From Vezdaea acicularis (Eukaryota): DNA of 64,000 nucleotides. This document shows, one piece after another, positions 3,519-64,000 of this stretch. Position numbers and translations under genes: made by a program. Under the pieces are notes generated by a model. The model was not told where the DNA came from and did no database searches. It was given only the letters and a program-made list of their open reading frames with translations. The stretch's first letter is position 1; each line of letters starts with the position of its first letter. Where the stretch lies: the NCBI GenBank assembly GCA_026025075.1, contig JAPEUI010000077.1, forward strand, positions 1 through 64,000, read 5' to 3'.

Positions 3519-4781
3519 TTAGGCCTTACCCAAACGCAGTAAAGCCTCGATCGCCTCCCGCTCCTGGACGTCAGATGCAAGAACGCCGTCCTGAATGCTA
3601 TTATCGCTGTAGTGATGATTATTAGATAGGTGATATTTCCTGTTGTTATGCACAAGCGCTGGCGGAGTAGGTTTTGCCAGCGCCGAAGTGACGGGCCCGC
3701 CGCCACTGCGATTGCTGTTATATACACGCGTCGCCATATAATTGCGCCCTATAAGAGCTGGATAGGATGCCTTACGCAAGGCAGCGGCTCCTATCGCAGC
3801 CCAGTCTTCCTCGTCCGTTACGTCGTCGGGGTCTTCGTCCAAGACCGGTCCTTCCTCTGGCGCAGCCTCGGAGGAGGAATAAGATTCTTCGCCGTCGAAA
3901 GACATCTTGTCGGCTTCGTGCTCGGCCATTGTGATGTCCTCAAGATATGGCATTTCCATCTCTTCGTCGTGAGAGAAGACAAAAGATTCACCAGTCATGC
4001 TTCTCCCTGCCTGCGTACTCGTGCGGCGACCCATCCAGTCTTTGCCTGGAATCGCTAGGGAGCTATTGGCGTAAGATGAAGGCACGCTCGCCGGAGGTGA
4101 GATACCCAGTAGAGAGTTCTTCTGGCGGCTCTCACGAGGGGGTTGTCCCTTGATGCGAGCGTCCCATCGGCCCCAGCCGACCTTCTCAAATTCCACGTCT
4201 CCGTTCACACCACCGCCTTCACCTCCGTTCCCTCGTCCTTCAAGTGCACCCACGACTAGTCGTCTAGCCTTCGCTGGTGGAATACCAGAGAAGCCCGGGA
4301 CGGATGTAGTCAGGTAACCCATGACATGACGGATCGCCAGAGGGCCATGGGCAAGGAGGATATCCGGCAGGTGGTGTCTAGCCAATAGGGAGGGAGTGAT
4401 GGCTCCTGCGGCGTCAAAAGGAATGGAGGATTTGTCGCTCGCGACTACAAAGCCATGTTGTGGCTTTACGGCCTGAACGTTGTCATCGGTCCCAGCGTCC
4501 TGAAGATCGATATCAGAATCCACGTGGATCGGTGTGGCAGGTGTAGCAGGCGTGGTCGCCTGAACTTGAGGCTTGAAACCCTGCGGCGGAAGATTCGGAG
4601 AGATGGAGTTGGGCGGAGTAGGAAGCATGCTGCCTGGTTTGCCGGTAGGGACTGACCTTGCTGCTACTGCAGCGAAGGTGTCTCGTCCAACAAAGCTGGT
4701 GTGATGGTGATGCTTGGGATGATCGATGGGCACCGTATTGCCAGTGAAGGCCACAGCGGCATCGGATTTGGTGGGAGCCAT
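3519..4781 (-). CDS. STB3: Sin3-binding protein Stb3 family
   Basis: 420-aa single-exon ORF with HLPDILLAHGPLAIRHVMGYLTTSVPGFSGIPPAKARRLVVGALE...FEKVGWGRW and TDEEDW motifs. Confidence 0.88.
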   Translation of the reverse strand: MAPTKSDAAVAFTGNTVPIDHPKHHHHTSFVGRDTFAAVAARSVPTGKPGSMLPTPPNSISPNLPPQGFKPQVQATTPATPATPIHVDSDIDLQDAGTDDNVQAVKPQHGFVVASDKSSIPFDAAGAITPSLLARHHLPDILLAHGPLAIRHVMGYLTTSVPGFSGIPPAKARRLVVGALEGRGNGGEGGGVNGDVEFEKVGWGRWDARIKGQPPRESRQKNSLLGISPPASVPSSYANSSLAIPGKDWMGRRTSTQAGRSMTGESFVFSHDEEMEMPYLEDITMAEHEADKMSFDGEESYSSSEAAPEEGPVLDEDPDDVTDEEDWAAIGAAALRKASYPALIGRNYMATRVYNSNRSGGGPVTSALAKPTPPALVHNNRKYHLSNNHHYSDNSIQDGVLASDVQEREAIEALLRLGKA

Positions 4782-6503
4782 GTTGATTTCAAAAAGCTTT
4801 CTCGTCGTCTACGATGATTGGAGTGAATGAGTCAACGCGAACCCGATGGATAACAGCAGGCCGACGACGCGACGGCTGACTGCAGAAGTTAAAGGCGGTA
4901 GCTTACCTCACAAAGACTCAGGAGCGAAGCAGGAGTCGCGAGTGACGATTCAACTAGCAGCACTTATGCAAGTTGATAACAGATCGATGGAAGCCGTTCG
5001 ATGTTTACCGAACAGCCTGAGCCGATGAGCGACGAGCGAGAAAGCGAATCTTGAAGGCGACGTAGGGCTGGCTGAGATCGGTAGCAGACACGGTCTCTCG
5101 GAGGGTGGTAGTTGGATTTATTCTGACAGTTTCTGAATAGCTATGGTTTGGTAAGTGGTGTTGTTCTGGAGAACAAAGCGGGGGTGTATGGAGGTGGGAA
5201 GGATACCTTTAAGATGGGTGTGATGAGCGAAATCGGGCATTGGGTTGCGTAACGAGCAAAAAGACAGAACACGGTTGTGCTTGCATGAGCGAAAAGAGGA
5301 AAAGCGGACGAGCGAGAGAGCGCAGGAATGGGCAGGTTCTGCGCCGGGCAGGTGATTGGCGACAGCGTTCCGGCACCCACGCCGGAAGCAGGGCTGGCTA
5401 AACTGCTCCCGCCAGGCCCGAATCTGACCGTCTGACGGGCGCGAGGGATCGCTGGGACGGACGGACCTCCAGGCGGCCGCTGCGAGAGCCGTCAAAGTCG
5501 AGCTGAACGAGCAGAATGAGTGGCAGCCACCAGGTCGCATTCCCCAGTTCTCCGTCCACTGCAGCCGAGAAGCCATCCATTCCAGGTTGTGCGGAGGGAA
5601 AAAAGAAAGCGACGCGTGCAAATTCTTAAGACGCGGAGATTGCGCAATGGCGAAAAATTCTCCCCACTTCACAAAAGGAAGGATACGGCATCGCCGGCGT
5701 CGCTGTTGTCCGTGTGAACCGCTGTGCGGCATGAAGGACCGTTTCACGTGAGCAGCCAAATCTGATGGTCCTCCCTCAGGTACGGCGACTTTGCGCTCGC
5801 ACGCTGTATTACTGGCGGCTGCGATTGGTTGTGGAGGGCAGGCCAGCTTTCGCACCTCTCTCTGTTCCTTGCTGGCGGTACCCATCCGTCCCATCCACGA
5901 GGCGAGCCCACCTGCGGTGTCTTTCCCGCTGCCATGCAATACTTCAGCCACGAGCTATCGCTATCCACAGATGCAACAACGTGATCATCCAAAGCGGGGG
6001 AAGGCTCGAGCGTGCAAGCGTTCGCTGGAGGTGTCTGCGGCTTTACGATTTGATAGTCTTCGCCCGCTCGGCCGTCTCTGCCATGCTGCCATTTTTCTTG
6101 GTAGCGCCGACCATATCGAAGTTTCCTGAATCCAGGGCGGTGGGATCCGGACGAGGTAGAGAGATAGACACGGTATCGGGAGGAACCGGTTTTGTTCTTT
6201 ATCAGAGTTTGTTATCGCAAGGTACCAGGTACCGTGAGTGCCGCGAACCGCAAAGCCAGGAGGCCAGCTCCTAGGCGCTCGGCATTGTTGCGATAAGCCT
6301 GTTTGATTGTCGCAAGTGAGAGAAGGCCTCAGTGGCGTTTGTGGCGCTCCCACTTCGGATGTTGTGCAGCACCCCAGACTGGCGCGATGACCCCCACTGG
6401 CACGCCAATCTCGTCGATCACGACAATACCGGCATTTTTACGAGATCAACCCGTCAGCAGTTCTTAAGCCTGTCATAGCTGATGACCAGGGTCTATTGCT
6501 CCG

Positions 6504-55477: not shown

Positions 55478-58400
55478 TTAAGTGTCTGCCCTCTTCTCTA
55501 CCAGCAGCTGTACCACCGCCTCATGCCCATTTGAGGCTGCCCGGTACAACGCCGTCTGTCCATACTTGTCTTTGACGTCAATGTCTGCCCCTTTCTCTAC
55601 CAGCAGCTGTACCACCGCCTCATGCCCTCTCGAGGCTGCCCGGTGCAACGCCGTCCGTCCATCCTCGTCTTTGACGTTAAGGTCTGCCCCCTTCTCTACC
55701 AGCAGCTGTACCACCGCCTCATGCCCTCTCGAGGCTGCCCAGTGCAACGCCGTCCGTCCACCCCCGTCTTTGACGTCTGCCCCTTTCTCCACCAGCAGCT
55801 GTACCACCGCCTCCTGCCCTCTCCAAGCTGCCCAATGCAACGCCGTCCGTCCATACTCGTCTTTGACGTCAACGTCTGCCCCCTTCTCTACCAGCAGCTG
55901 TTCCACTGCCTCATGCCTATTCAAGGCTGCCTGGTGCAATGCCGTCTCTCCATACTTGTCTTTGACGTCAACGTCTGCCCCCTTCTCTACCAGCAGCTGT
56001 ACCACCGCCTCATGTCTATTCCAAGCTGCCCAATGCAATGCCGTCTGTCCATACTTCTCTTTGACGTCAAGGTCTGCCCCTTTCTCTACCAGTAGCTGTA
56101 CCACCGCCTCATGCCCATTCAAGGCTGCTTGGTGCAAGGCCGTCTGTCCATACTTGTCTTTGACGTCAACGTCTGCCCCCTTCTCTACCAGCAGCTGTAC
56201 CACCGCCTCATGCCTATTCCAGGCTGCCTGGTGCAATGCCGTCCGTCCATCCTTGTCTTTGACCTCAACGTCTGCCCCCTTCTCTACCAGCAGCTGTTCC
56301 ACCGCCTCATGCCCTCTCGAGGCTGCCCGGTGCAACGCCGTCCGTCCATCCTCGTCTTTGACGTCAAGGTCTGCCCCTTTCTCTACCAGCAGCTGTACCA
56401 CCGCCTCATGCCCATCCCAGGCTGCCCAGTGCAATGCCGTCTCTCCACGCTCGTTTTTGGCCTCAACGTCTGCCCCATCGTCTAAAAGCAATTGAGTTAC
56501 TGTTCTTAGACCAGAGGAAGCAGCAACATGTAGTCCAGAGACTTCCTTAGGAAACTGTTGGCTGTATCCGTGATTCCGGTATATGGGGCTATGCGTGACT
56601 TGAATGTAGCAAGAAACCCGAGACCTATCCTTGAGGAACCTCAAAATTAACTTCTGAAGCGCATGCTCCATATCTCCACGTGTATGCTCACTCCAGTATT
56701 GAGCAGCATACCTTAGCAGAGGGTTCTCCCGCAATCGAACCTCTAGATCGTCATCGGTGGAACAAAACCCCTTTGCAAATGCATCAAATAGGAGGTAAGT
56801 AAGACAGTGTTGCGCAATTTCCATTCGCGCATCAGGAAACCGATCCTCTCGAATGCGCTTAAAGAAATCCTGGGTAGTGTAGTGGACCAGGCGTACTAAA
56901 CCGCTCTCTTGTTCAATAGAGACTAAGCCAGCACAAATCGACAAGAGTATCTCCCCATCAACAATGTCGCCTCCATCTAATTTTGATGCTTCTGGCATAA
57001 TAGCTAAAGCATGTTGAAGCTCAATCATAGACAATGGGGTTTTGGCATATGTGATCCAGTATAAGATACGTGTTGCAAGCTTTCGATCCTCTACATTTTG
57101 GTGGTCAATCCTTTGCAAAGCTTCCTCATATGTATTATCAAGACCATTTGGAAGATGTTCTGTTGCTTGGACTACTGCATTTCGGGTCTGTTTGTTTGCT
57201 ATCATATCCATATGGAGTCGAGCAAGTAGAAACCTAGAAGAAAGTTAGGACGATTGCTATATAGTAAGGCATTGTGAAGCAATAGGATGTGAGAAGGGCA
57301 TGTGAAAGCTAGGCTGACGTACATTCCTCTGACATTTTTAATTACAGCATCTGTAACTTTTTCTCTCACCGTTGGCTCTGCTTTGACTATTTTAGCCAAC
57401 CGAGATGTTTGAGATATTCTTGCTTCTAGATATTTATACACATCTTCGTCTTTCGCAGTGATTTCTAGCTTTTCTCGGTTTGGAAAAGTATCTTCGATAT
57501 GTATACTAGGCCGTGAAGTGATCATTAGGCCCACAGTGTCAGCCAGTACTCCTAAGCTGTCAAGAAGATCTCTGCGAGAGTCTTCTAGACATTCATCTAC
57601 AGCGTCAACAACTATAAAAGCTCTTGGAAAGCTTAAAACTGCAGACTGAAGAGCTTTTGACATCTCTTGAAGTGTTGGTCGTGTAATCTTCTTCAAGTGT
57701 TTATCAAACATAGGTTCGAGACCATCGAGAAGAGAAGGCATTTGCTGGGCTAATTGTTTAAGCAAACTTGAAACGAGATTGACGGAAGACTGTTCGGTCT
57801 GGTCGTTGTAGTTGCAATATATAAATGCGACTGCATTGTCTGTCTCTGCAAAGGTTGTTTGTAGATAATCTATTGCAGTCGAGCTAGGAGTGGACGCTGA
57901 ATTAGCTGGCCATAAGCTAAGAAAGACACCCAGAGATCATACGCAAGGACAGTTTTGCCAGCACCAGCTATCACCACCTAGTCAGTCAGGAGGCATCAGG
58001 CAACAAGCTCGACTTACGCATTCCTGGGCACCACAGGATTCTTGGGGCACCGTGCAGCCACCCTATGAAGCTTTTAGACTTTAACAACCATTCGCCTGTC
58101 CCTTTCTGCCGTGTACGGAGGATATCGTTTTGTGTCTGGGGAAAATTGAGAGGAGAAAGCCAGCTAATGATAGACTTGTGAAGTTCAGAGATTGACTTTT
58201 GACGCTGAGCTGATTCACTATCAGCATGTACTCAATTAGGGAAGATAGAACTTCCGGAGTCTCACTTTGCTGTAGTATTGAAACACCGCCTACAATATCC
58301 ATCACGTTGTTGTTCATATCCACAATCTTCTGGTCTGTCGCAAGAGATAAAGCGCTAGACATAGTTAGCATAAGATAAATATATGATGTGATCATATATG

Positions 58401-58829
58401 ATCATCACAAACTAACAATTGTCCGCGTTGTAACGTAATCTCGATAGATGATTTAGCCCGTTCAATCTTTAGCAGAATCTCATTTGTCTTCTTCTTATCA
58501 AGTGTCCAGATCAAAGCCTTGCCAAGAGATTTCATGGAAGAAGTCGGCTTCAGGTTGCTTGTTAATTCCTCAATGGCCACCTTCAGTTGGTGCAAAGGTC
58601 TGCCCTCTTCCGCAAGGGATCGAATACCCTGAAACCATGGCTCTGATGATTTAGCTTCTTCCACTGCATCTCTTAAGTCTAAAAGAACTTTATAGAGATC
58701 TACCAGCTCAGTGCGGATCCTTTTCCGAGCCTCGGCGGCATCTTTGACGTCCTGGAGATACTTCACTGCTTTCAAAGTCGCATTGCTGATTTGGATGATA
58801 CTCGCCGTTAAGCTTACTACCTCTGCCAT
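55478..58829 (-). CDS. Fungal NLR: HeLo-like/SesA-type N-terminal domain, NACHT NTPase, ankyrin repeats; 6 exons, intact
   Basis: Hand splicing keeps the frame: WLSPLNF..GTGEWLL..LWCPGM|PGAGKTVLA|S Walker A, FIVVDAVDEC Walker B, ITSRP, GM|FLLARLHMD, LVHYTTQDFF, then ankyrin repeats. Confidence 0.93.
55481..56445 (-). repeat. Ten near-identical 99-bp ankyrin-coding units (one 93 bp)
   Basis: TALHxAAxxGHEAVVQLLVEKGADxDVKDxxGx repeated at both DNA and protein level. Confidence 0.97.
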
Positions 58830-59333
58830 TGATGAAGAAGGGAATAACTAAAACCAGACTTTAACGCAAATCCGGTGAGTTGATGTGGTATGTATTTCAA
58901 GAAAAATCATAAATGGAATGGAAAGGAATAGTCACGGCCTAGCACCAGTTTCTGTACATGTACTTCTGATACGACTCGCTACGTGTAGTGTTCGGATTTG
59001 ACCAATTTTGCGTGTTTTGCTCTGGAACAACATTGTATAAATCTTCCACACACAAAAATCATGTCTTTCCGCCCCACCTCAGGCCTTAATAGTCAGTCAT
59101 ATCTTGTGGAGAAAATATCAGTTCTGTGCAGTTGGAAGCACCCAAACCACCAAAACTTCCCTAATTCTAAGCGGCAGGTTTGCCGGTGTGCTAGAGGGAA
59201 TTGACTCTAAACGGCAGGGTTACTATGTGCTAGACAATTATCCCACAAGCAAGGATCCTACATGAATATCTAAGTAACAAGTTTACTGGTAGATTGAAGG
59301 CTTAAATGGGGTATGCAGCCTTTTAAATATGGG

Positions 59334-59478
59334 ACTACGGAGGTACAGGCCGTAAAGAATGTTAGCACAGGCAAGGGAGAACCCATGCACCAACCAATTA
59401 CCTTCGCACTATTTCGTTCAGTGCATGGGTTCTCCCCCTGCCCGTGCTAACATTCTTTACGGCCTGTACCTCCGTAGT
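59334..59478. mobile_element. Small foldback / MITE-like element, ~57-bp arms with 30-bp spacer
   Basis: 59334-59390 is the reverse complement of 59421-59478 with 2 substitutions and 1 indel; internal TA|CAG...CTG|TA. Confidence 0.75.
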
Positions 59479-60488
59479 TCTATGGTAAATTAGAGTAGCA
59501 GGACTGCCAGTGTATTCTGTAGGAGACTATCTTATGGGGGATCGCCTCTAAGGGGTCGCGGATAGAATGCAGAGAAGCTAAGCGCTTTAGCGCGTCCTAG
59601 CGCTCAATTTCGCCTGCTCTTTTAGACAGGCCTTTCTGAGCATACTTCTTCAACGCCTGTGTCGCGTCTTAGGCCTCAACAATGCAGCAAGCTTCACACG
59701 CCCATTAACGCACCTGTTTCCTTGAGATCCTGCTAGCACTATAGATAGCTTTGGCTCATAGCTAGTTATTAGAATCTATTCATGTAATCGCAGTTCGTCT
59801 ATTATATCGCTATATTTATATCTTTATACCGCTCAGTGATACTGCTAGCTATTGCCGGCGGCCCGCCTATCGCTATAGTCCATTTAACACGCAGTAACAC
59901 CGCAGGCAGGCCGCAGACGGCGCCCGGCCTATCACGCTCTCAGAATTAGGGGCAGCTATCATGCCCGTCCTTACAGAGATGATTGGTTTGGTGAACTTGA
60001 AACGCTTGAACCACTCATGGCCTTGCCTTGCAGGCAGGACGAGGTGATCAGCATAATAGGCTATAAGCACTTGAAGCGCTCCCGGCCGGCATGATGCACA
60101 TCGAGCGCTTGGAGCGCTTGCGGTCTTACATGCGGGCAGGAAGAGAGGGCTGGCACAAATGTGCTTGGAGCGCTTGAAGCACTCGGAGTGCTCAGAGTGC
60201 ACATGATCTCAGCTGTCAGGCAGGGTGACAGGTCGGCATTGTTAGCTTCAAGTGCTTGAAGCGCTTAGAACACTTGAAGCGCCTGAGATCTTGCATGTGG
60301 GCCAGACAAGACGGCTACCCTAAATGCGCCCTGAGCGCATGGAGCGCTCGTAATGCTTGAAGCGCTCATGGCATCGCTCAGCCGGCAAGACGAGGGGACT
60401 GGCACAATGCGCTCGGAGCGCTTGAAGCGCTCGTGGCTTCGCTCGGCCGGCGAGACAGAGGACCGGCGCGATGCGCTCGCCAGGTGTA

Positions 60489-60721
60489 CACGGGGTGTTA
60501 GCTATGTCTGTTCCGCCAAGGCTTGGCGTCCGATTTTCGCGATACTTCAGCACCACGACCACAGATGTGATTGGAATTTAAAAACTTATAGAGGCATCTC
60601 AGGATAGAATAGGATGTCTTTTGCCATCAATTAAATTGTTTGAAGCCGAAGAGTGGATGGTGGAGTCTCGGGAAAATCGGGCGCCACTTCTTGGCGGAAC
60701 AGACATAGCTAACACCCCGTG
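60489..60721. mobile_element. 233-bp Tc1/mariner-type MITE, copy 1
   Basis: TIR CACGGGGTGTTAGCTATGTCTGTTCCGCCAAG at both ends, flanked by TA at 60487 and 60722. Confidence 0.88.
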
Positions 60722-60723
60722 TA

Positions 60724-60956
60724 CACGGCATGTTAGCTATGCCTGTTCCGCCAAGAAGTGGCGTCCGATTTTCCCGAGGCTTCACCATCCACTCCTCGGC
60801 TTCAAACAATTTATTTAATGGCAAAAGACATCCTATTCTGCCTTAAGATGCCTCTATAAGTTTTTAAATTCCGATCGCATCTGTGGTCGTGGTGCTGAAG
60901 CATCGTAAAAATCGGATGCCAAGCCTTGGCGGAACAGACATAGCTAACACCCCGTG
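60724..60956. mobile_element. 233-bp Tc1/mariner-type MITE, copy 2 (inverted relative to copy 1)
   Basis: Same TIRs, internal sequence is the reverse complement of copy 1, TA at 60722 and 60957. Confidence 0.88.
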
Positions 60957-61863
60957 TACGTACCGCTTAGTCCGGGCTCGCTTATAGAGGCGAGCCCCCG
61001 TAACCGCAGCTCAGCGGCTTCGCAACTACACAGGCAAGACGAAAGGATCGGCGCGATGCGCTTGAAGCGCTTGAAGCGCTTGCAGTATCGCCCGATGCTT
61101 GGGGCGACCGGCCGGCACGATACGCTTGTGAGCGCTTCAAGCGCTCACAAGCCTCGCCGGGCGAGCGCGACAAAGCGGTGAGGGGACTTGAGGCGCTTGA
61201 ACCGCAGGCTGCTCAAATGCCACCGGTGGCTAAAGGCCCCATGGCTTTTCGAATAGGCGATGGAGGGCCCATCATCCGCCTTTAGGTGAAGGCGCTCGCT
61301 TAGCGAGACCGCATGCCAAGGGTGGGGTTTTTTTGTCACCCGCGTGCCGCGTCCCCCAGATCAAGTTGGAGCTATTTGATGGTAGACTTCTTCCGTCGTC
61401 TGACGTGATCTGCTCATGTAGAGTACTTGACAATACTTTGCGGTTGGCATGATACAAGGTCTCCGAGAAATGGCACAAGCATAAAACCACCAGATCACAC
61501 GGCGCTCACCTGATCATATATTTCTTCCGTTGTCTCGTATGCCATCAACCTGGGAAAGGCTGAGTATTTCATCTCCTTACTCCATCGTGATGGAGAATGA
61601 GGCGCACTCAACTCGAGCTCAACGTGATTGGACGTTTTGGTTATGCTGCAGCAAGGTAGATGCCTTACAGCCTTGTGTGCGGCCTCGCTGCGGTTGCAAG
61701 GCTGAGGGAACCAAACTCCCACTTTTGTTTGTCTTGAATAAGAGGGTATTAAGACTCTTATTTTCTCTTTCATCTTCTAGTGTTTTGCTTGCGACTCTTC
61801 TCATTTCTTGTTCGAGGCATGAGAGTTTGTTTCGCGTTTGTCTGACTCTCCACGCTCGCCGCG

Positions 61864-64000
61864 ATGGTTTCGCATAGTCCTTCGCGGGAAAGGCATGATG
61901 CGGAGTCGCATCAGTCAAAGCAATTGGTTTGTTATATTTGCGGAAAAGATGTAGAACGACTTGGACGCTATGAGGGGCCCGACACGACTGAGTTCCCATT
62001 CGAGTTGCCCCAACGTATCCGATGCCTTGCTTGCAAATCTTTTCCATTCGACCTCCAGGAAAAGATGGCTATACCTACAGCGGGCTCTACGAAAGCTCAG
62101 ACCGGAGAACCGGCGGCTAAAAACAACGTTTCTGATGGTCGCTCTGGCAAGCTCAAGACACAAGATGATACTAAAGGTACCCTCAATTGGTACTGCGTAA
62201 GCAATCAGCATCTGTATAACCCTAACGAAGCTACTAAGCTTGATATAGTGCCAGTGTGGAGATGGAGGTTGGTCCCTCACATTCGACATTCAATGTCCCT
62301 CGTACATGTGCGGCCATTTCCGTTGCGGAGGTTGCAAATACGGTAAGCTGAATCATACCTTGTTAATATGGCGGCAGAGATTGAATATTGACTGCATTTA
62401 GTAAGGACGTCGGATCCAATCCAGAACTTGGAGGTATCCCAGAAGTTGATGGAGAACGTGGAGGATGATACTCGGGAGGGGTTTGAGTCATTGCAAGTTG
62501 AGGAAATGATTGAGGCCGTGATGAATGCCGGAGGAAGCGCATCAAGAGTAATGTGGGATAGAGCAGACGATACCAAGCCGTCGAAAACCGCCTCCAAACG
62601 TTCAAGTCAAAGCGCTCCTAGGGACAAGAGTACAGGACATACCACGTTTGATATACGCGAGTGGCAAGTTGAGAGAGACTCCTCAACCATAGAAAAGTCC
62701 TTACAAGATTCATGGCCCCCTACAGATGAGCACGATCTTATTGCTGGGAAGATGGCTGTACCCAAGGAACAAAGAAGGAACAGCATTTGGGCAGAGTCTC
62801 CTCATTTAGACACCGAGGACGAAGTCGGAACTACGGTAGAAACTACAGATCCAATCCATACGGAAACCCTACGAGACGGAGAAGGCTCTTCATCAGCAGC
62901 GGAAAAGGAAACGATTGATAAGGCGATAAGTCGTAACATTGCTGGCACTAGCTTCCTCCAAGCTGTTCAGGGGGGCCAACCTGGTGCCGAGAAACAAGGG
63001 CCGGTCGAGTTCAACCATGCGCTTAGCTATGTGAACAAGGTCAAAAACCGATTTGCTGCGCATCCTGAGATCTACAAGCAGTTCCTTGAGATTCTTCAAA
63101 TATACCAATGGGAAGGCAAGCCTATACAGGACGTCTATGCGCAGGTTACACAGCTATTCAGCTCTGCCCCAGATTTGCTTGAAGATTTCAAACAATTCTT
63201 GCCAGAATCTGCAGCTCAAGCTGCTGCAAGACAAGCTGCGGAAGATGCATCTATACTCAGCAATTTAAGAGGAGGCGACCAACTTCACCCCCCCGGTAGC
63301 CAAGCAACTCTGTCTCAACATGCCCTAGGTATGCTTGAAGATTTCAAACAATTCTTGCTAGAATCTGCAGCTCAAGCTGCTGCAAGACAAGCTGCGGAAG
63401 ATGCATCTATACTCAGCAATTTAAGAGGAGGCGACCAACTTTACCCCCCCGGTAGCCAAGCAACTCAGTCTCAACATGCCCCATCACAGCGAAGTGACAT
63501 GAAGATGCCTCCTGTTGGTAACTTTGCAGCCACACTTAGAGATCAGGGCAAGCTAGACGAGGCAGCGTTAATGCAGATAGGTGTACTGGAGAAGATGACA
63601 AAAAACCTTGGCGGAGAGCATTCCAAAACCATCTTAGCAATGGACAACCTTGCAGACGACAAGCTTTTTGAAAAGCCATCTCCCGAGATATCAAACGCTT
63701 TCGGGCATTTCCCAAAAGTACATGATGTGGAAGCTGCTCCTCCATTGTTCAAACCTGGAGACACATCCATACTACAAGTACCTCATGCTCACAGCACAGT
63801 CGGTTTGCGGCAAGATCCACCACTGCACCTTGTTCCAAACGAATTCAATATCTTGCTGTCTACATCTGGCAACAAAGATATTGGAATGGACCTTGGCGAA
63901 TTGAGAATGCCCATCGGAAACGATCAACTGTTAGCCGTATCTGCAGCTGAGAGCCAAAGATCAAGTGACAATCAGGCTTCTCCTAATCAGGATCCATTTA
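61864..64000 (+). CDS. Mosaic protein: Cys-rich Zn ribbon, Sin3 PAH2-like segment, single TPR repeat (partial, runs off the window end)
   Basis: Exons 61864-62196, 62249-62342 and 62402->64000 with GT-AG introns in compatible phase; last exon stop-free for ~530 codons. Confidence 0.8.
63176..63481 (+). repeat. Tandem duplication, 150-bp copies at 156-bp period, in frame
   Basis: 63176-63325 vs 63332-63481, three substitutions. Confidence 0.95.

What the first reader, a model, noticed from the sequence alone, without database searches (positions are those of the whole stretch)
61864..64000. Intact mosaic gene carrying a captured Sin3 PAH2 domain between a Zn ribbon and an NLR-type TPR
Seen: most of this gene is missing from the ORF track because it has no stop in the window. 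Spliced by hand it reads CYICG..CLAC, then [26 protein letters not shown], then at ~62989-63528 [95 protein letters not shown]...[10 protein letters not shown], then one TPR. Established: that block closely matches fungal Sin3 PAH2 plus its downstream linker as I recall it, and PAH2 binds SID helices of repressors. No PAH1 precedes it and no PAH3/HID follows within the window, so this is not Sin3 itself. Inference: a host fragment was captured in frame into an accessory gene 3 kb from an NLR, possibly as a decoy/sensor or as a competitor for Sin3-Rpd3 recruitment.
Basis: partly seen in the sequence, partly recalled or inferred. Interest (0 to 1): 0.82.

Follow-up and report, generated by a model that had tools for sequence, protein, structure and literature searches.

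The report
Young chimeric gene carrying Sin3 PAH2
A fungal gene next to an immune-type NLR gene has recently copied the PAH2 protein-binding module of the Sin3 co-repressor into an otherwise orphan reading frame, but the copied piece is changing as if unconstrained, so it looks more like a by-product of gene birth than a proven decoy.

Summary
A three-exon + strand gene (ATG 61864, canonical introns of 52 and 59 nt) reads 675 codons with no stop to the window end. It carries a true PAH domain (Pfam 53.7 bits, cutoff 21.3) that matches Sin3 PAH2 specifically (98.7 bits, against 28.2 for PAH1 and 8.4 for PAH3).

Contigs of a relative's real SIN3 fix the copied piece at 62940-63527. It is 97.3% identical in DNA, and the parent sequence differs beyond both ends. 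The piece equals residues 491-638 of a 1588-aa full-length Sin3.

Three points are new:
- A 156-bp in-frame tandem duplication lies inside the piece.
- The piece is followed by exactly one 126-nt unit of a multicopy TPR array.
- All other parts of the gene have no detectable relatives.

Since capture the piece shows 14 nonsynonymous and 4 synonymous changes (pN/pS 1.0). Four fall at columns conserved in 75-79 of 80 homologues.

So this is a real in-frame capture, but nothing shows that PAH2 function is kept. The decoy or competitor idea is untested, and I found no RNA data. This is a new member of a known kind, of moderate interest.

The parts
61864..62196 (+). Exon 1 (111 codons), an orphan. 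It contains CxxC-x27-CxxC and ends in WYC.
   Evidence: An exhaustive phmmer against 1.84 billion representatives gave 1 hit at E<=0.001, a spurious low-complexity repeat protein. Pfam Zn_ribbon_3 reaches only E 0.12. The codon-usage log-ratio is positive only in this frame.
62197..62248 (+). Intron 1, 52 nt, GTAAGC...CTAAC...TAG
62249..62342 (+). Exon 2, Cys/His-rich (CQCGDGGW...[14 protein letters not shown])
   Evidence: No Pfam family is above threshold. It is too short for the codon-usage test.
62343..62401 (+). Intron 2, 59 nt, GTAAGC...TAG
62402..62939 (+). Exon 3, orphan acidic/Ser-Thr-rich stretch (about 179 codons)
   Evidence: No homologue in the word-indexed search of 292-931-aa proteins. 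None in JGI metagenome contigs. Codon usage is coding-like in frame.
62940..63527 (+). Piece copied from SIN3. It holds the pre-PAH2 residues, PAH2 and the linker, and equals residues 491-638 of a full-length Sin3. It is in Sin3's own reading frame.
   Evidence: SIN3 contigs of a relative match 62940-63221 (7 differences) and 63369-63527 (5 differences), then run on unlike the window at both ends. BLASTP to P0001 and P0122 agrees.
63010..63198 (+). PAH2 four-helix bundle (the Pfam PAH match is 63067-63201)
   Evidence: Pfam 53.7 bits. The AF2 model has helices at residues 25-38, 43-59, 63-73 and 78-87 of the piece, with pLDDT 85-96. The model matches 6xaw_A with TM 0.94 and rmsd 1.3 A.
63165..63476 (+). 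In-frame tandem duplication, 2 x 156 bp (52 codons each). It repeats PAH2 helix 4 and part of the linker.
   Evidence: TRF: period 156, 2.0 copies, 95%. The repeat finder family D2, 96%. The copies differ at 6 sites, all nonsynonymous. The parental contig skips 147 nt here.
63524..63654 (+). One unit of an NLR-type (TPR_10/TPR_12-like) TPR array, in its native frame. It is joined to the Sin3 piece across a 4-nt overlap, TTGC (63524-63527).
   Evidence: Several contigs match at about 80-90% identity. One returns from 63654 to 63544 after 15 extra letters, which gives a 126-nt period. Pfam is sub-threshold. Atlas gives TPR leads only, score 0.82.
63655..64000 (+). Orphan C-terminal stretch, open to the window end. 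63904-64000 is a further shared piece.
   Evidence: No homologue. 63904-64000 is matched with 6 differences in 97 nt by contigs whose upstream sequence differs. Codon usage is coding-like.
55478..58847 (-). Neighbouring NLR (helical N-terminus, NACHT/NPHP3_N, WHD, ankyrin repeats), divergently oriented
   Evidence: Pfam on its ORFs. Its first ATG is at 58829, and at least one open splice join is possible. The full gene model was not verified.
60486..60959 (.). Perfectly abutting palindrome (237-nt arms, 92% complementary) in the shared intergenic region

Best explanation
This is a young, lineage-specific chimeric gene made by DNA-level patchwork.

Origin (inferred). A 441-bp stretch of the organism's SIN3, covering PAH2 and the linker after it, was copied into an orphan Cys-rich reading frame in Sin3's own frame. 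It abuts a single 126-nt unit copied from an NLR-type TPR array. The joints carry little or no homology, which points to microhomology-mediated repair or template switching. A 12-nt slippage deletion and a 156-bp in-frame tandem duplication came later.

Function. If translated, the protein would carry one folded PAH2 bundle without PAH1, PAH3, HID or the Sin3 C-terminus. It could at most bind SID-type amphipathic helices without bringing a deacetylase. The copied piece is evolving as if unconstrained, so my reading is that PAH2 function is not (yet) under selection. I take the gene to be a product of gene birth in a rearrangement-prone region beside an NLR, not an established decoy.

Shown: the capture, its limits, the frame, the duplication and the substitution pattern. 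Inferred: the repair mechanism and the lack of function.
For: - Capture limits. The parental SIN3 contig (X3 record 16, 2042 bp) matches 62940-63221 and 63369-63527 with 12 differences in 441 nt. Beyond both ends it continues as true Sin3, and its loose ends translate to the Sin3 sequence of P0001.
- Source gene. The piece equals residues 491-638 of a 1588-aa Sin3 with three PAH domains, HID and Sin3a_C.
- Joints. The Sin3/TPR joint shares only TTGC. There is no poly(A) at the 3' joint.
- Substitutions. Against the parent there are 8 nonsynonymous and 4 synonymous-type changes over 340 N and 95 S sites. Between the tandem copies there are 6 nonsynonymous and 0 synonymous. Pooled pN/pS is 1.0. 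An omega of 0.2 or less is rejected at P 0.0018 and 0.3 at P 0.02.
- Conserved columns. At six replaced positions, 0 of 79-80 homologues carry the window's residue. Four of these columns are I in 79 of 80, I in 79 of 80, T in 78 of 80 and R in 75 of 80.
- Orphan flanks. Searches with exon 1, exon-3 residues 1-178, residues 418-532 and residues 418-532 as nt 63655-63999 found no true relative.
- Open frame of the piece. It is not informative, because 18 random substitutions leave it open 47% of the time.
Against: - The whole 675-codon frame is open. The 435 orphan codons alone would stay open by chance with P about 1e-10.
- Codon usage is coding-like in the annotated frame for 5 of 6 segments.
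- Both joints keep the native frames of Sin3 and the TPR, and both later indels (12 nt, 156 nt) are multiples of three. As a rough estimate that is about 1 in 81 by chance. Together these points suggest the frame as a whole is or was selected.
- The PAH2 fold is predicted with pLDDT 85-96 and matches the Sin3-Ume6 crystal structure. An alignment-driven model would give this in any case.
- The equivalents of the pocket residues V415, F467, F470 and L471, named in the 6XAW preprint, are all kept.
- pN/pS of about 1 from 18 changes cannot separate neutrality from a mix of positive and purifying selection.
- The comparator SIN3 comes from a relative's metagenome contig, not from the same genome.
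Confidence: 0.55

Rival explanations
1. It is a functional bait or competitor. The PAH2 module is kept as an HDAC-less binder of SID-type helices. It would act either as a decoy guarded by the divergently transcribed NACHT-ankyrin NLR, or as a titrator of Sin3-recruiting repressors.
For: - Head-to-head arrangement with an NLR 3.0 kb away.
- Intact frame and in-frame joints.
- Confident PAH2 fold, and 4 of 4 named pocket residues retained.
- PAH occurs as an integrated domain in plant NLRs. Arabidopsis WRKY19 is one case (passages read in PMC13725568). PAH is listed for A. thaliana and Z. mays (table passage read in PMC4759884).
- Two other annotated fungal proteins carry a lone PAH2-like domain in non-Sin3 contexts: P0089 (DUF3295+PAH) and P0107 (ULD_2+PAH).
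- Two substitutions (I to L, I to V) lie at i-3 and i+3 from pocket residue V415 on helix 1, so they could retune specificity. This is inference.
Against: - No NB domain is in this gene within the window, and only one TPR unit is present.
- Pooled pN/pS is 1.0.
- Substitutions fall at near-invariant columns, including R to W and T to I at the end of helix 2.
- No relative carrying the mosaic was found. The relative's contigs hold the parent gene but none of the unique parts, which is weak evidence because holes prove nothing.
- In the Sordariales NLR survey, head-to-head NLR pairs are reported as rare. PAH and Sin3 occur 0 times in the main text and in the 12 of 17 supplement files searched.
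Confidence: 0.22
2. It is a dead mosaic: an untranscribed or untranslated patchwork of coding fragments whose frame is still open only because it is young.
For: - pN/pS is about 1 in the Sin3 piece.
- The open frame of that piece is expected 47% of the time by chance.
- At least three joints to unrelated sequence lie within 1 kb (62940, about 63527, 63904).
- All other parts are orphans.
Against: - 435 orphan codons without a stop (P about 1e-10).
- Two canonical short introns with GTAAGC donors that restore the frame.
- Coding-like codon usage in frame.
- All joints and indels are in frame.
Confidence: 0.15
3. It is an assembly chimera that joins reads of SIN3, a TPR gene and other loci.
For: - I could find no independent reads of the source organism. 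The only runs holding parts of the stretch carry the parent genes, not the joints.
- No whole genome is held for the window.
Against: - The joints share at most 4 identical bases, far below any assembler's overlap.
- The piece differs from SIN3 by 12 substitutions and a 12-nt deletion, and has its own diverged tandem duplication with 6 differences. Mis-joined SIN3 reads would not produce these.
- Every joint is in frame.
Confidence: 0.05
4. It is the organism's SIN3 gene itself, or a truncated allele of it.
For: High identity of the PAH2 block to Sin3.
Against: - No PAH1 lies upstream, and the upstream exons are Cys-rich orphans.
- Downstream of residue 638-equivalent the sequence is a TPR unit, not Sin3.
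- The parental contig diverges at both ends.
- Real Sin3 has PAH1 about 210 residues upstream and PAH3/HID downstream.
Confidence: 0.01

Closest known systems
Sin3 co-repressor, PAH2 domain (yeast Sin3 405-473 region; PDB 6XAW Sin3 PAH2-Ume6 SID)
   Same: The sequence is 72% identical over the bundle. The predicted four-helix fold matches with TM 0.94 and rmsd 1.3 A. The equivalents of pocket residues V415, F467, F470 and L471 are kept.
   Different: Only residues 491-638 of a 1588-aa Sin3 are present, with no PAH1, PAH3, HID or Sin3a_C. The piece is replaced at four near-invariant columns and carries a duplicated helix 4 plus linker.
Integrated domains ('integrated decoys') of plant NLRs, including the PAH domain of Arabidopsis WRKY19 paired head to head with DSC1
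   Same: A host PAH domain has been copied out of a Sin3-type gene into an unrelated gene, which lies head to head with an NLR.
   Different: Here the carrier shows no NB domain within the window, only one TPR unit. No pairing function is known, and the copy shows no sign of constraint.
Other fungal proteins with a lone PAH2-like domain: Lasiodiplodia theobromae BFW01_g3760 (P0089, DUF3295+PAH) and Mollisia scopiformis LY89DRAFT_710862 (P0107, ULD_2+PAH)
   Same: Each has a single PAH2-type domain, starting near the 'RGP.EFN' motif, inside a non-Sin3 protein.
   Different: They are older and more diverged (45-49% identity to the window piece), sit in different host proteins, and keep the I, I and R residues that the window copy has lost. 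I did not check whether those gene models are correct.
Young chimeric genes formed by partial gene duplication or templated insertion at repaired breaks (general class; recalled, no paper read for it here)
   Same: The parent-derived fragment has internal breakpoints, minimal homology at the joints, high DNA identity to the parent and relaxed constraint.
   Different: At least three different source pieces are all joined in their native frames within one exon.

Membership tests
Sin3 co-repressor | Three PAH domains in order (PAH1-PAH2-PAH3) | tested here: not met
   There is one Pfam PAH match only. Upstream exons are Cys-rich orphans. Real Sin3 (P0122) has 3 PAH stretches.
Sin3 co-repressor | HDAC-interaction domain (Sin3_corepress PF08295) and Sin3a_C (PF16879) | tested here: not met
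   Both are absent from the 536-aa frame. The Sin3 homology ends at 63527 and a TPR unit follows. Sequence past 64000 was not seen.
PAH domain (PF02671), PAH2 subtype | Profile score above the gathering threshold, with the best match to PAH2 | tested here: met
   53.7 bits against 21.3. PAH2 scores 98.7 bits, PAH1 28.2 and PAH3 8.4 on yeast Sin3.
PAH domain (PF02671), PAH2 subtype | Left-handed four-helix bundle | tested here: met
   The AF2 model has four helices with pLDDT 85-96. Foldseek gives 6xaw_A at TM 0.94 and rmsd 1.3 A. This is a prediction driven by an alignment of Sin3 homologues.
PAH domain (PF02671), PAH2 subtype | Hydrophobic SID pocket formed by helices 1 and 2 | tested here: inconclusive
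   The equivalents of V415, F467, F470 and L471 are kept. However, I412L and I418V on helix 1, and T438I and R441W on helix 2, are replaced at near-invariant columns. Binding is not testable here.
NLR with integrated decoy, or a sensor/helper pair | The decoy domain is fused to an NB (NACHT/NB-ARC) domain in the same protein | tested here: not met
   No NB family appears in the gene within the window. The part beyond 64000 is unknown.
NLR with integrated decoy, or a sensor/helper pair | Head-to-head arrangement with an NLR | tested here: met
   The NACHT-ANK gene lies on the minus strand with its ATG at 58829, and the mosaic gene on the plus strand with its ATG at 61864. This shows the geometry only.
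NLR with integrated decoy, or a sensor/helper pair | The domain mimics a host target of an antagonist's effector and triggers the NLR | not testable with these tools
   This needs genetics or biochemistry.
TPR_10/TPR_12 (NLR-type, kinesin-light-chain-like TPR) | Profile score above threshold and tandem units | tested here: not met
   TPR_12 scores 19.1 against 30.1 and TPR_10 16.5 against 27.5. There is a single unit. Its descent from such an array is supported by contigs with a 126-nt period that match 63524-63654.
Zinc ribbon | Profile match, or two Cys knuckles in a ribbon fold | tested here: inconclusive
   Zn_ribbon_3 scores E 0.12, 12.4 bits against 27. The sequence shows CxxC-x27-CxxC and C-C-x-C...C-x4-C-x-H-x2-C-x2-C. 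No fold was predicted, because the motif spans an intron.
Retrocopy (RNA-mediated capture) | Poly(A) tract at the 3' joint and loss of parental introns | tested here: inconclusive
   There is no A-run at 63528. The parental contig has no intron within the copied stretch, so intron loss cannot be judged.

The most novel reading that the evidence does not exclude
A fungal 'bait gene': an HDAC-less Sin3 PAH2 module sits in a stand-alone protein that is divergently paired with a NACHT-ankyrin NLR. It would serve as a guarded mimic of the Sin3 co-repressor, sensing antagonists' effectors or selfish elements that target Sin3-Rpd3 recruitment. The replaced helix-1 and helix-2 residues and the duplicated helix 4 would then be adaptive retuning. 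This would be a fungal, split-gene counterpart of the PAH integrated domains of plant NLRs.
Probability: 0.07. Interest if true: 0.8.

Novelty: new member of a known kind. Interest (0 to 1): 0.35.

Why it matters
This is a cleanly dated example of gene birth by fragment capture in a fungus. The parent gene, both breakpoints, the later deletion and duplication, and the substitution spectrum can all be read directly.

PAH2 is the docking site through which repressors recruit the Sin3-HDAC complex. An expressed HDAC-less copy could interfere with repression or act as bait, as has been proposed for PAH domains integrated in plant NLRs. Its position head to head with an NLR makes that testable.

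On present evidence the piece drifts neutrally. The main value is therefore as a case study, and as one of at least three independent PAH2 captures in Pezizomycotina gene sets, not as a new system.

Tried and rejected
- Own-genome search for SIN3: no genome is held for this window. Identity and dN/dS against the same genome's SIN3 could therefore not be measured. A relative's metagenome contigs were used instead.
- RNA evidence: no RNA holder was listed. Only 3 DNA runs of one study hold small shares (0.06) of the stretch.
- Cover of 61864-62939 and 63655-63903 in those runs: none. A hole proves nothing.
- Homologues of exon-3 residues 1-178: none among 218 candidates, 292-931 aa only. In JGI metagenome contigs, 110 pattern matches gave 0 confirmed.
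- Homologues of residues 418-532: none among 72 candidates. In metagenome contigs, 125 pattern matches gave 0 confirmed.
- Exon 1 against 1.84 billion representatives: 1 hit at E<=0.001, a 567-aa tandem-repeat protein that matches 25 residues in 9 repeated stretches. I judged it spurious.
- ESM Atlas on exon 3 with Sin3 families skipped: only TPR_10/12 clusters at 0.82, which is lead level. Atlas on exon 2 was not available.
- Similarity of the gene to the rest of the window: none by blastn or tblastn.
- Earlier findings of this scan: nothing by place, sequence or words.
- Bacterial promoter/terminator scan: irrelevant for a eukaryote and disregarded.
- RIP as the cause of the differences between copies: 3 of 6 are C/T changes and the rest are A/G, T/A and T/A, which is not a RIP spectrum. 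Composition shows no AT-rich RIP block.
- Literature: two searches found no paper on captured Sin3 PAH2 in fungi. The Sordariales NLR paper has 0 occurrences of PAH or Sin3 in the main text and in 12 of 17 supplement files. 5 files were not searched.
Full report
**What is there.** On the + strand an ATG at 61864 opens a gene of three exons: 61864-62196, 62249-62342 and 62402 onward. The two short introns (52 and 59 nt) both begin GTAAGC and end TAG. Spliced, the gene reads 675 codons without a stop up to the end of the window. The long third exon is open from 62392 to 63999.

Pfam finds one domain above threshold, PAH (PF02671): E 1.7e-14, 53.7 bits against a cutoff of 21.3, at nt 63067-63201. 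It also gives sub-threshold TPR_12 and TPR_10 matches just downstream, and only a chance-level zinc-ribbon match in exon 1. Against solved structures the block aligns with PAH2 of yeast Sin3 at 98.7 bits, PAH1 at 28.2 and PAH3 at 8.4. An AlphaFold2 model of the piece, built on an alignment of 81 sequences, has four helices with pLDDT 85-96.

**Limits and source of the captured piece.** No whole genome is held for this window. Three metagenome runs of one study hold small parts of the stretch. Laying their contigs shows what those parts are.

- A 2042-bp contig matches 62940-63221 (7 differences) and 63369-63527 (5 differences), which is 97.3% identity over 441 nt.
- The contig skips 147 nt between the two matches. 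Beyond both ends it continues with sequence unlike the window.
- Its loose ends translate into the residues that flank this block in P0001, a partial Sin3 model of a close relative.
- The same protein cluster contains a full-length 1588-aa Sin3, labelled by its source as a MAG of Vezdaea acicularis. It has three PAH domains, Sin3_corepress and Sin3a_C. The window piece equals its residues 491-638.

The block is thus a 148-codon internal fragment of SIN3, in Sin3's own reading frame, inside a gene that is not SIN3.

- Tandem duplication. The piece holds a 156-bp (52-codon) in-frame duplication, 63165-63320 and 63321-63476. It repeats PAH2 helix 4 and part of the linker. The parental contig lacks it, and another parental contig carries 12 extra nt behind 63212 that the window copy has lost.
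- TPR unit. From about 63524 to 63654 many contigs match at roughly 80-90% identity. One returns from 63654 to 63544 after 15 extra letters, which gives a 126-nt period. This is exactly one unit of a multicopy TPR array, in its native frame.
- Joints. Sin3 homology ends at 63527 and TPR homology starts at 63524, so the joint shares only TTGC.
- Another breakpoint. A further shared piece starts at 63904 (6 differences in 97 nt), and the contigs' upstream sequence there differs from the window.

**The rest is orphan.**

- Exon 1, searched exhaustively against 1.84 billion representatives, gave only a spurious hit to a tandem-repeat protein.
- Residues 1-178 and 418-532 of exon 3 gave nothing in the word-indexed search of 292-931-aa proteins.
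- Residues 1-178 and the stretch 63655-63999 gave nothing in JGI metagenome contigs.
- The gene resembles nothing else in the window.

These parts still look coding. The 435 orphan codons would stay open by chance with P about 1e-10. A codon-usage log-ratio trained on twelve Pfam-supported ORFs of the window is positive only in the annotated frame for exon 1, both orphan stretches, the Sin3 piece and the TPR unit (0.12-0.25). Control ORFs score 0.15-0.17 and the intergenic region is negative in all frames. Exon 2, with 31 Cys-rich codons, fails the test.

**How the copy has evolved.** Against the parental contig there are 8 nonsynonymous and 4 synonymous-type changes over 340 N and 95 S sites (pN/pS 0.56). 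The two tandem copies differ at 6 sites, all nonsynonymous. Pooled, that is 14 to 4, pN/pS 1.0. This matches the neutral expectation and rejects omega of 0.2 or less (P 0.0018) and 0.3 (P 0.02).

The replacements are derived in the window copy. At six positions, 0 of 79-80 homologues share its residue. Four of them are near-invariant columns: I in 79 of 80, I in 79 of 80, T in 78 of 80 and R in 75 of 80, changed here to L, V, I and W. In yeast numbering, taken from the alignment, these are I412L and I418V on helix 1 and T438I and R441W at the end of helix 2.

A preprint on the 6XAW structure (passages read) says helices 1 and 2 form the SID pocket and names V415, F467, F470 and L471 as lining it. 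All four equivalents are kept. The open frame of the piece itself says little, because 18 random substitutions would leave it open 47% of the time.

Two caveats apply. The comparator is a relative's SIN3, not the same genome's, and 18 changes cannot separate neutrality from mixed selection.

**Context.** The first 52 kb of the window hold ordinary housekeeping genes. At 55478-58847 on the minus strand lies a NACHT(NPHP3_N)-WHD-ankyrin NLR. Its ATG at 58829 faces the mosaic gene across 3.0 kb. That spacer contains a 474-bp perfect-abutting palindrome, a hairpin and arrays of GCGCTTGAA-like 9-mers. Composition shows no AT-rich RIP block.

**Reading.** The capture in frame is shown. I infer a DNA-level origin by break repair or template switching with minimal homology, from the 4-nt overlap, the lack of a poly(A) tract and several joints within 1 kb. 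A slippage deletion and a tandem duplication followed.

As for function, the protein would carry an HDAC-less PAH2, so the only ancestral activity it could exert is binding SID-type helices. The substitution pattern gives no sign that this is maintained. My best reading is a young chimeric gene whose PAH2 part is drifting (0.55).

- Functional bait or competitor (0.22). It gains from the intact frame, in-frame joints and indels, the retained pocket residues and the NLR neighbour. It also gains from precedent: PAH is an integrated domain in plant NLRs such as Arabidopsis WRKY19 (passages read). In addition, 2 of the 120 proteins listed (P0089 and P0107) carry a lone PAH2-like domain beside a non-Sin3 family.
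- Dead mosaic (0.15).
- Assembly chimera (0.05). This is unlikely because the joints lack overlap, and because the copy has its own substitutions, deletion and diverged duplication.
- SIN3 itself is excluded within the window.

**Novelty.** Chimeric genes from partial duplications, PAH domains outside Sin3 and host domains integrated near or in NLRs are all known kinds. This is a new and unusually legible member. Two literature searches found no paper on captured Sin3 PAH2 in fungi. A Sordariales NLR survey does not mention PAH or Sin3 in its main text or in 12 of the 17 supplement files I could search.

The finding is real, but I rate it moderately (0.35). Expression data, the sequence beyond 64000 and population data would decide between drift and function.

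Noticed in passing
window 3519-4808 (-): An ORF with a strong Stb3 match ('putative Sin3 binding protein', PF10330, E 2.2e-38) lies 57 kb from the captured Sin3 PAH2 piece. This is probably coincidence, but its product would be a natural candidate partner to test.
   Followed up: no
window 60486-60959; 59329-59483; 59991-61086: The spacer between the NLR and the mosaic gene holds three features. One is a palindrome with 237-nt arms (92% complementary, no spacer). Another is a 49-nt-arm hairpin. The third is 12 copies of a degenerate GCGCTTGAA-based 31-mer. These are possibly MITE/foldback remnants that could promote breaks and template switching.
   Followed up: partly
window 63904-64000: The last 97 nt of the window match other contigs of the relative's metagenome with 6 differences, and those contigs' upstream sequence differs from the window. 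This is a further breakpoint, so the exon is a patchwork of at least three source pieces.
   Followed up: partly
window 63329-63334: The duplication junction created GTATGC, a splice-donor-like hexamer, inside exon 3. Whether it is used is unknown.
   Followed up: no
P0089 (Lasiodiplodia theobromae) and P0107 (Mollisia scopiformis): Two annotated fungal proteins carry a single PAH2-like domain next to DUF3295 or a ubiquitin-like ULD_2 domain. PAH2 capture into non-Sin3 genes may therefore be recurrent in Pezizomycotina. The gene models were not verified.
   Followed up: partly
window 55478-57244 (-): The NLR's ankyrin array consists of very similar 33-residue units (Ank_2 377 bits, 10 Ank stretches). 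This produces long spurious ORFs on the opposite strand (55482-56495 +). The NLR needs several introns, and one possible open join was found (donor 58416, acceptor 58218).
   Followed up: partly
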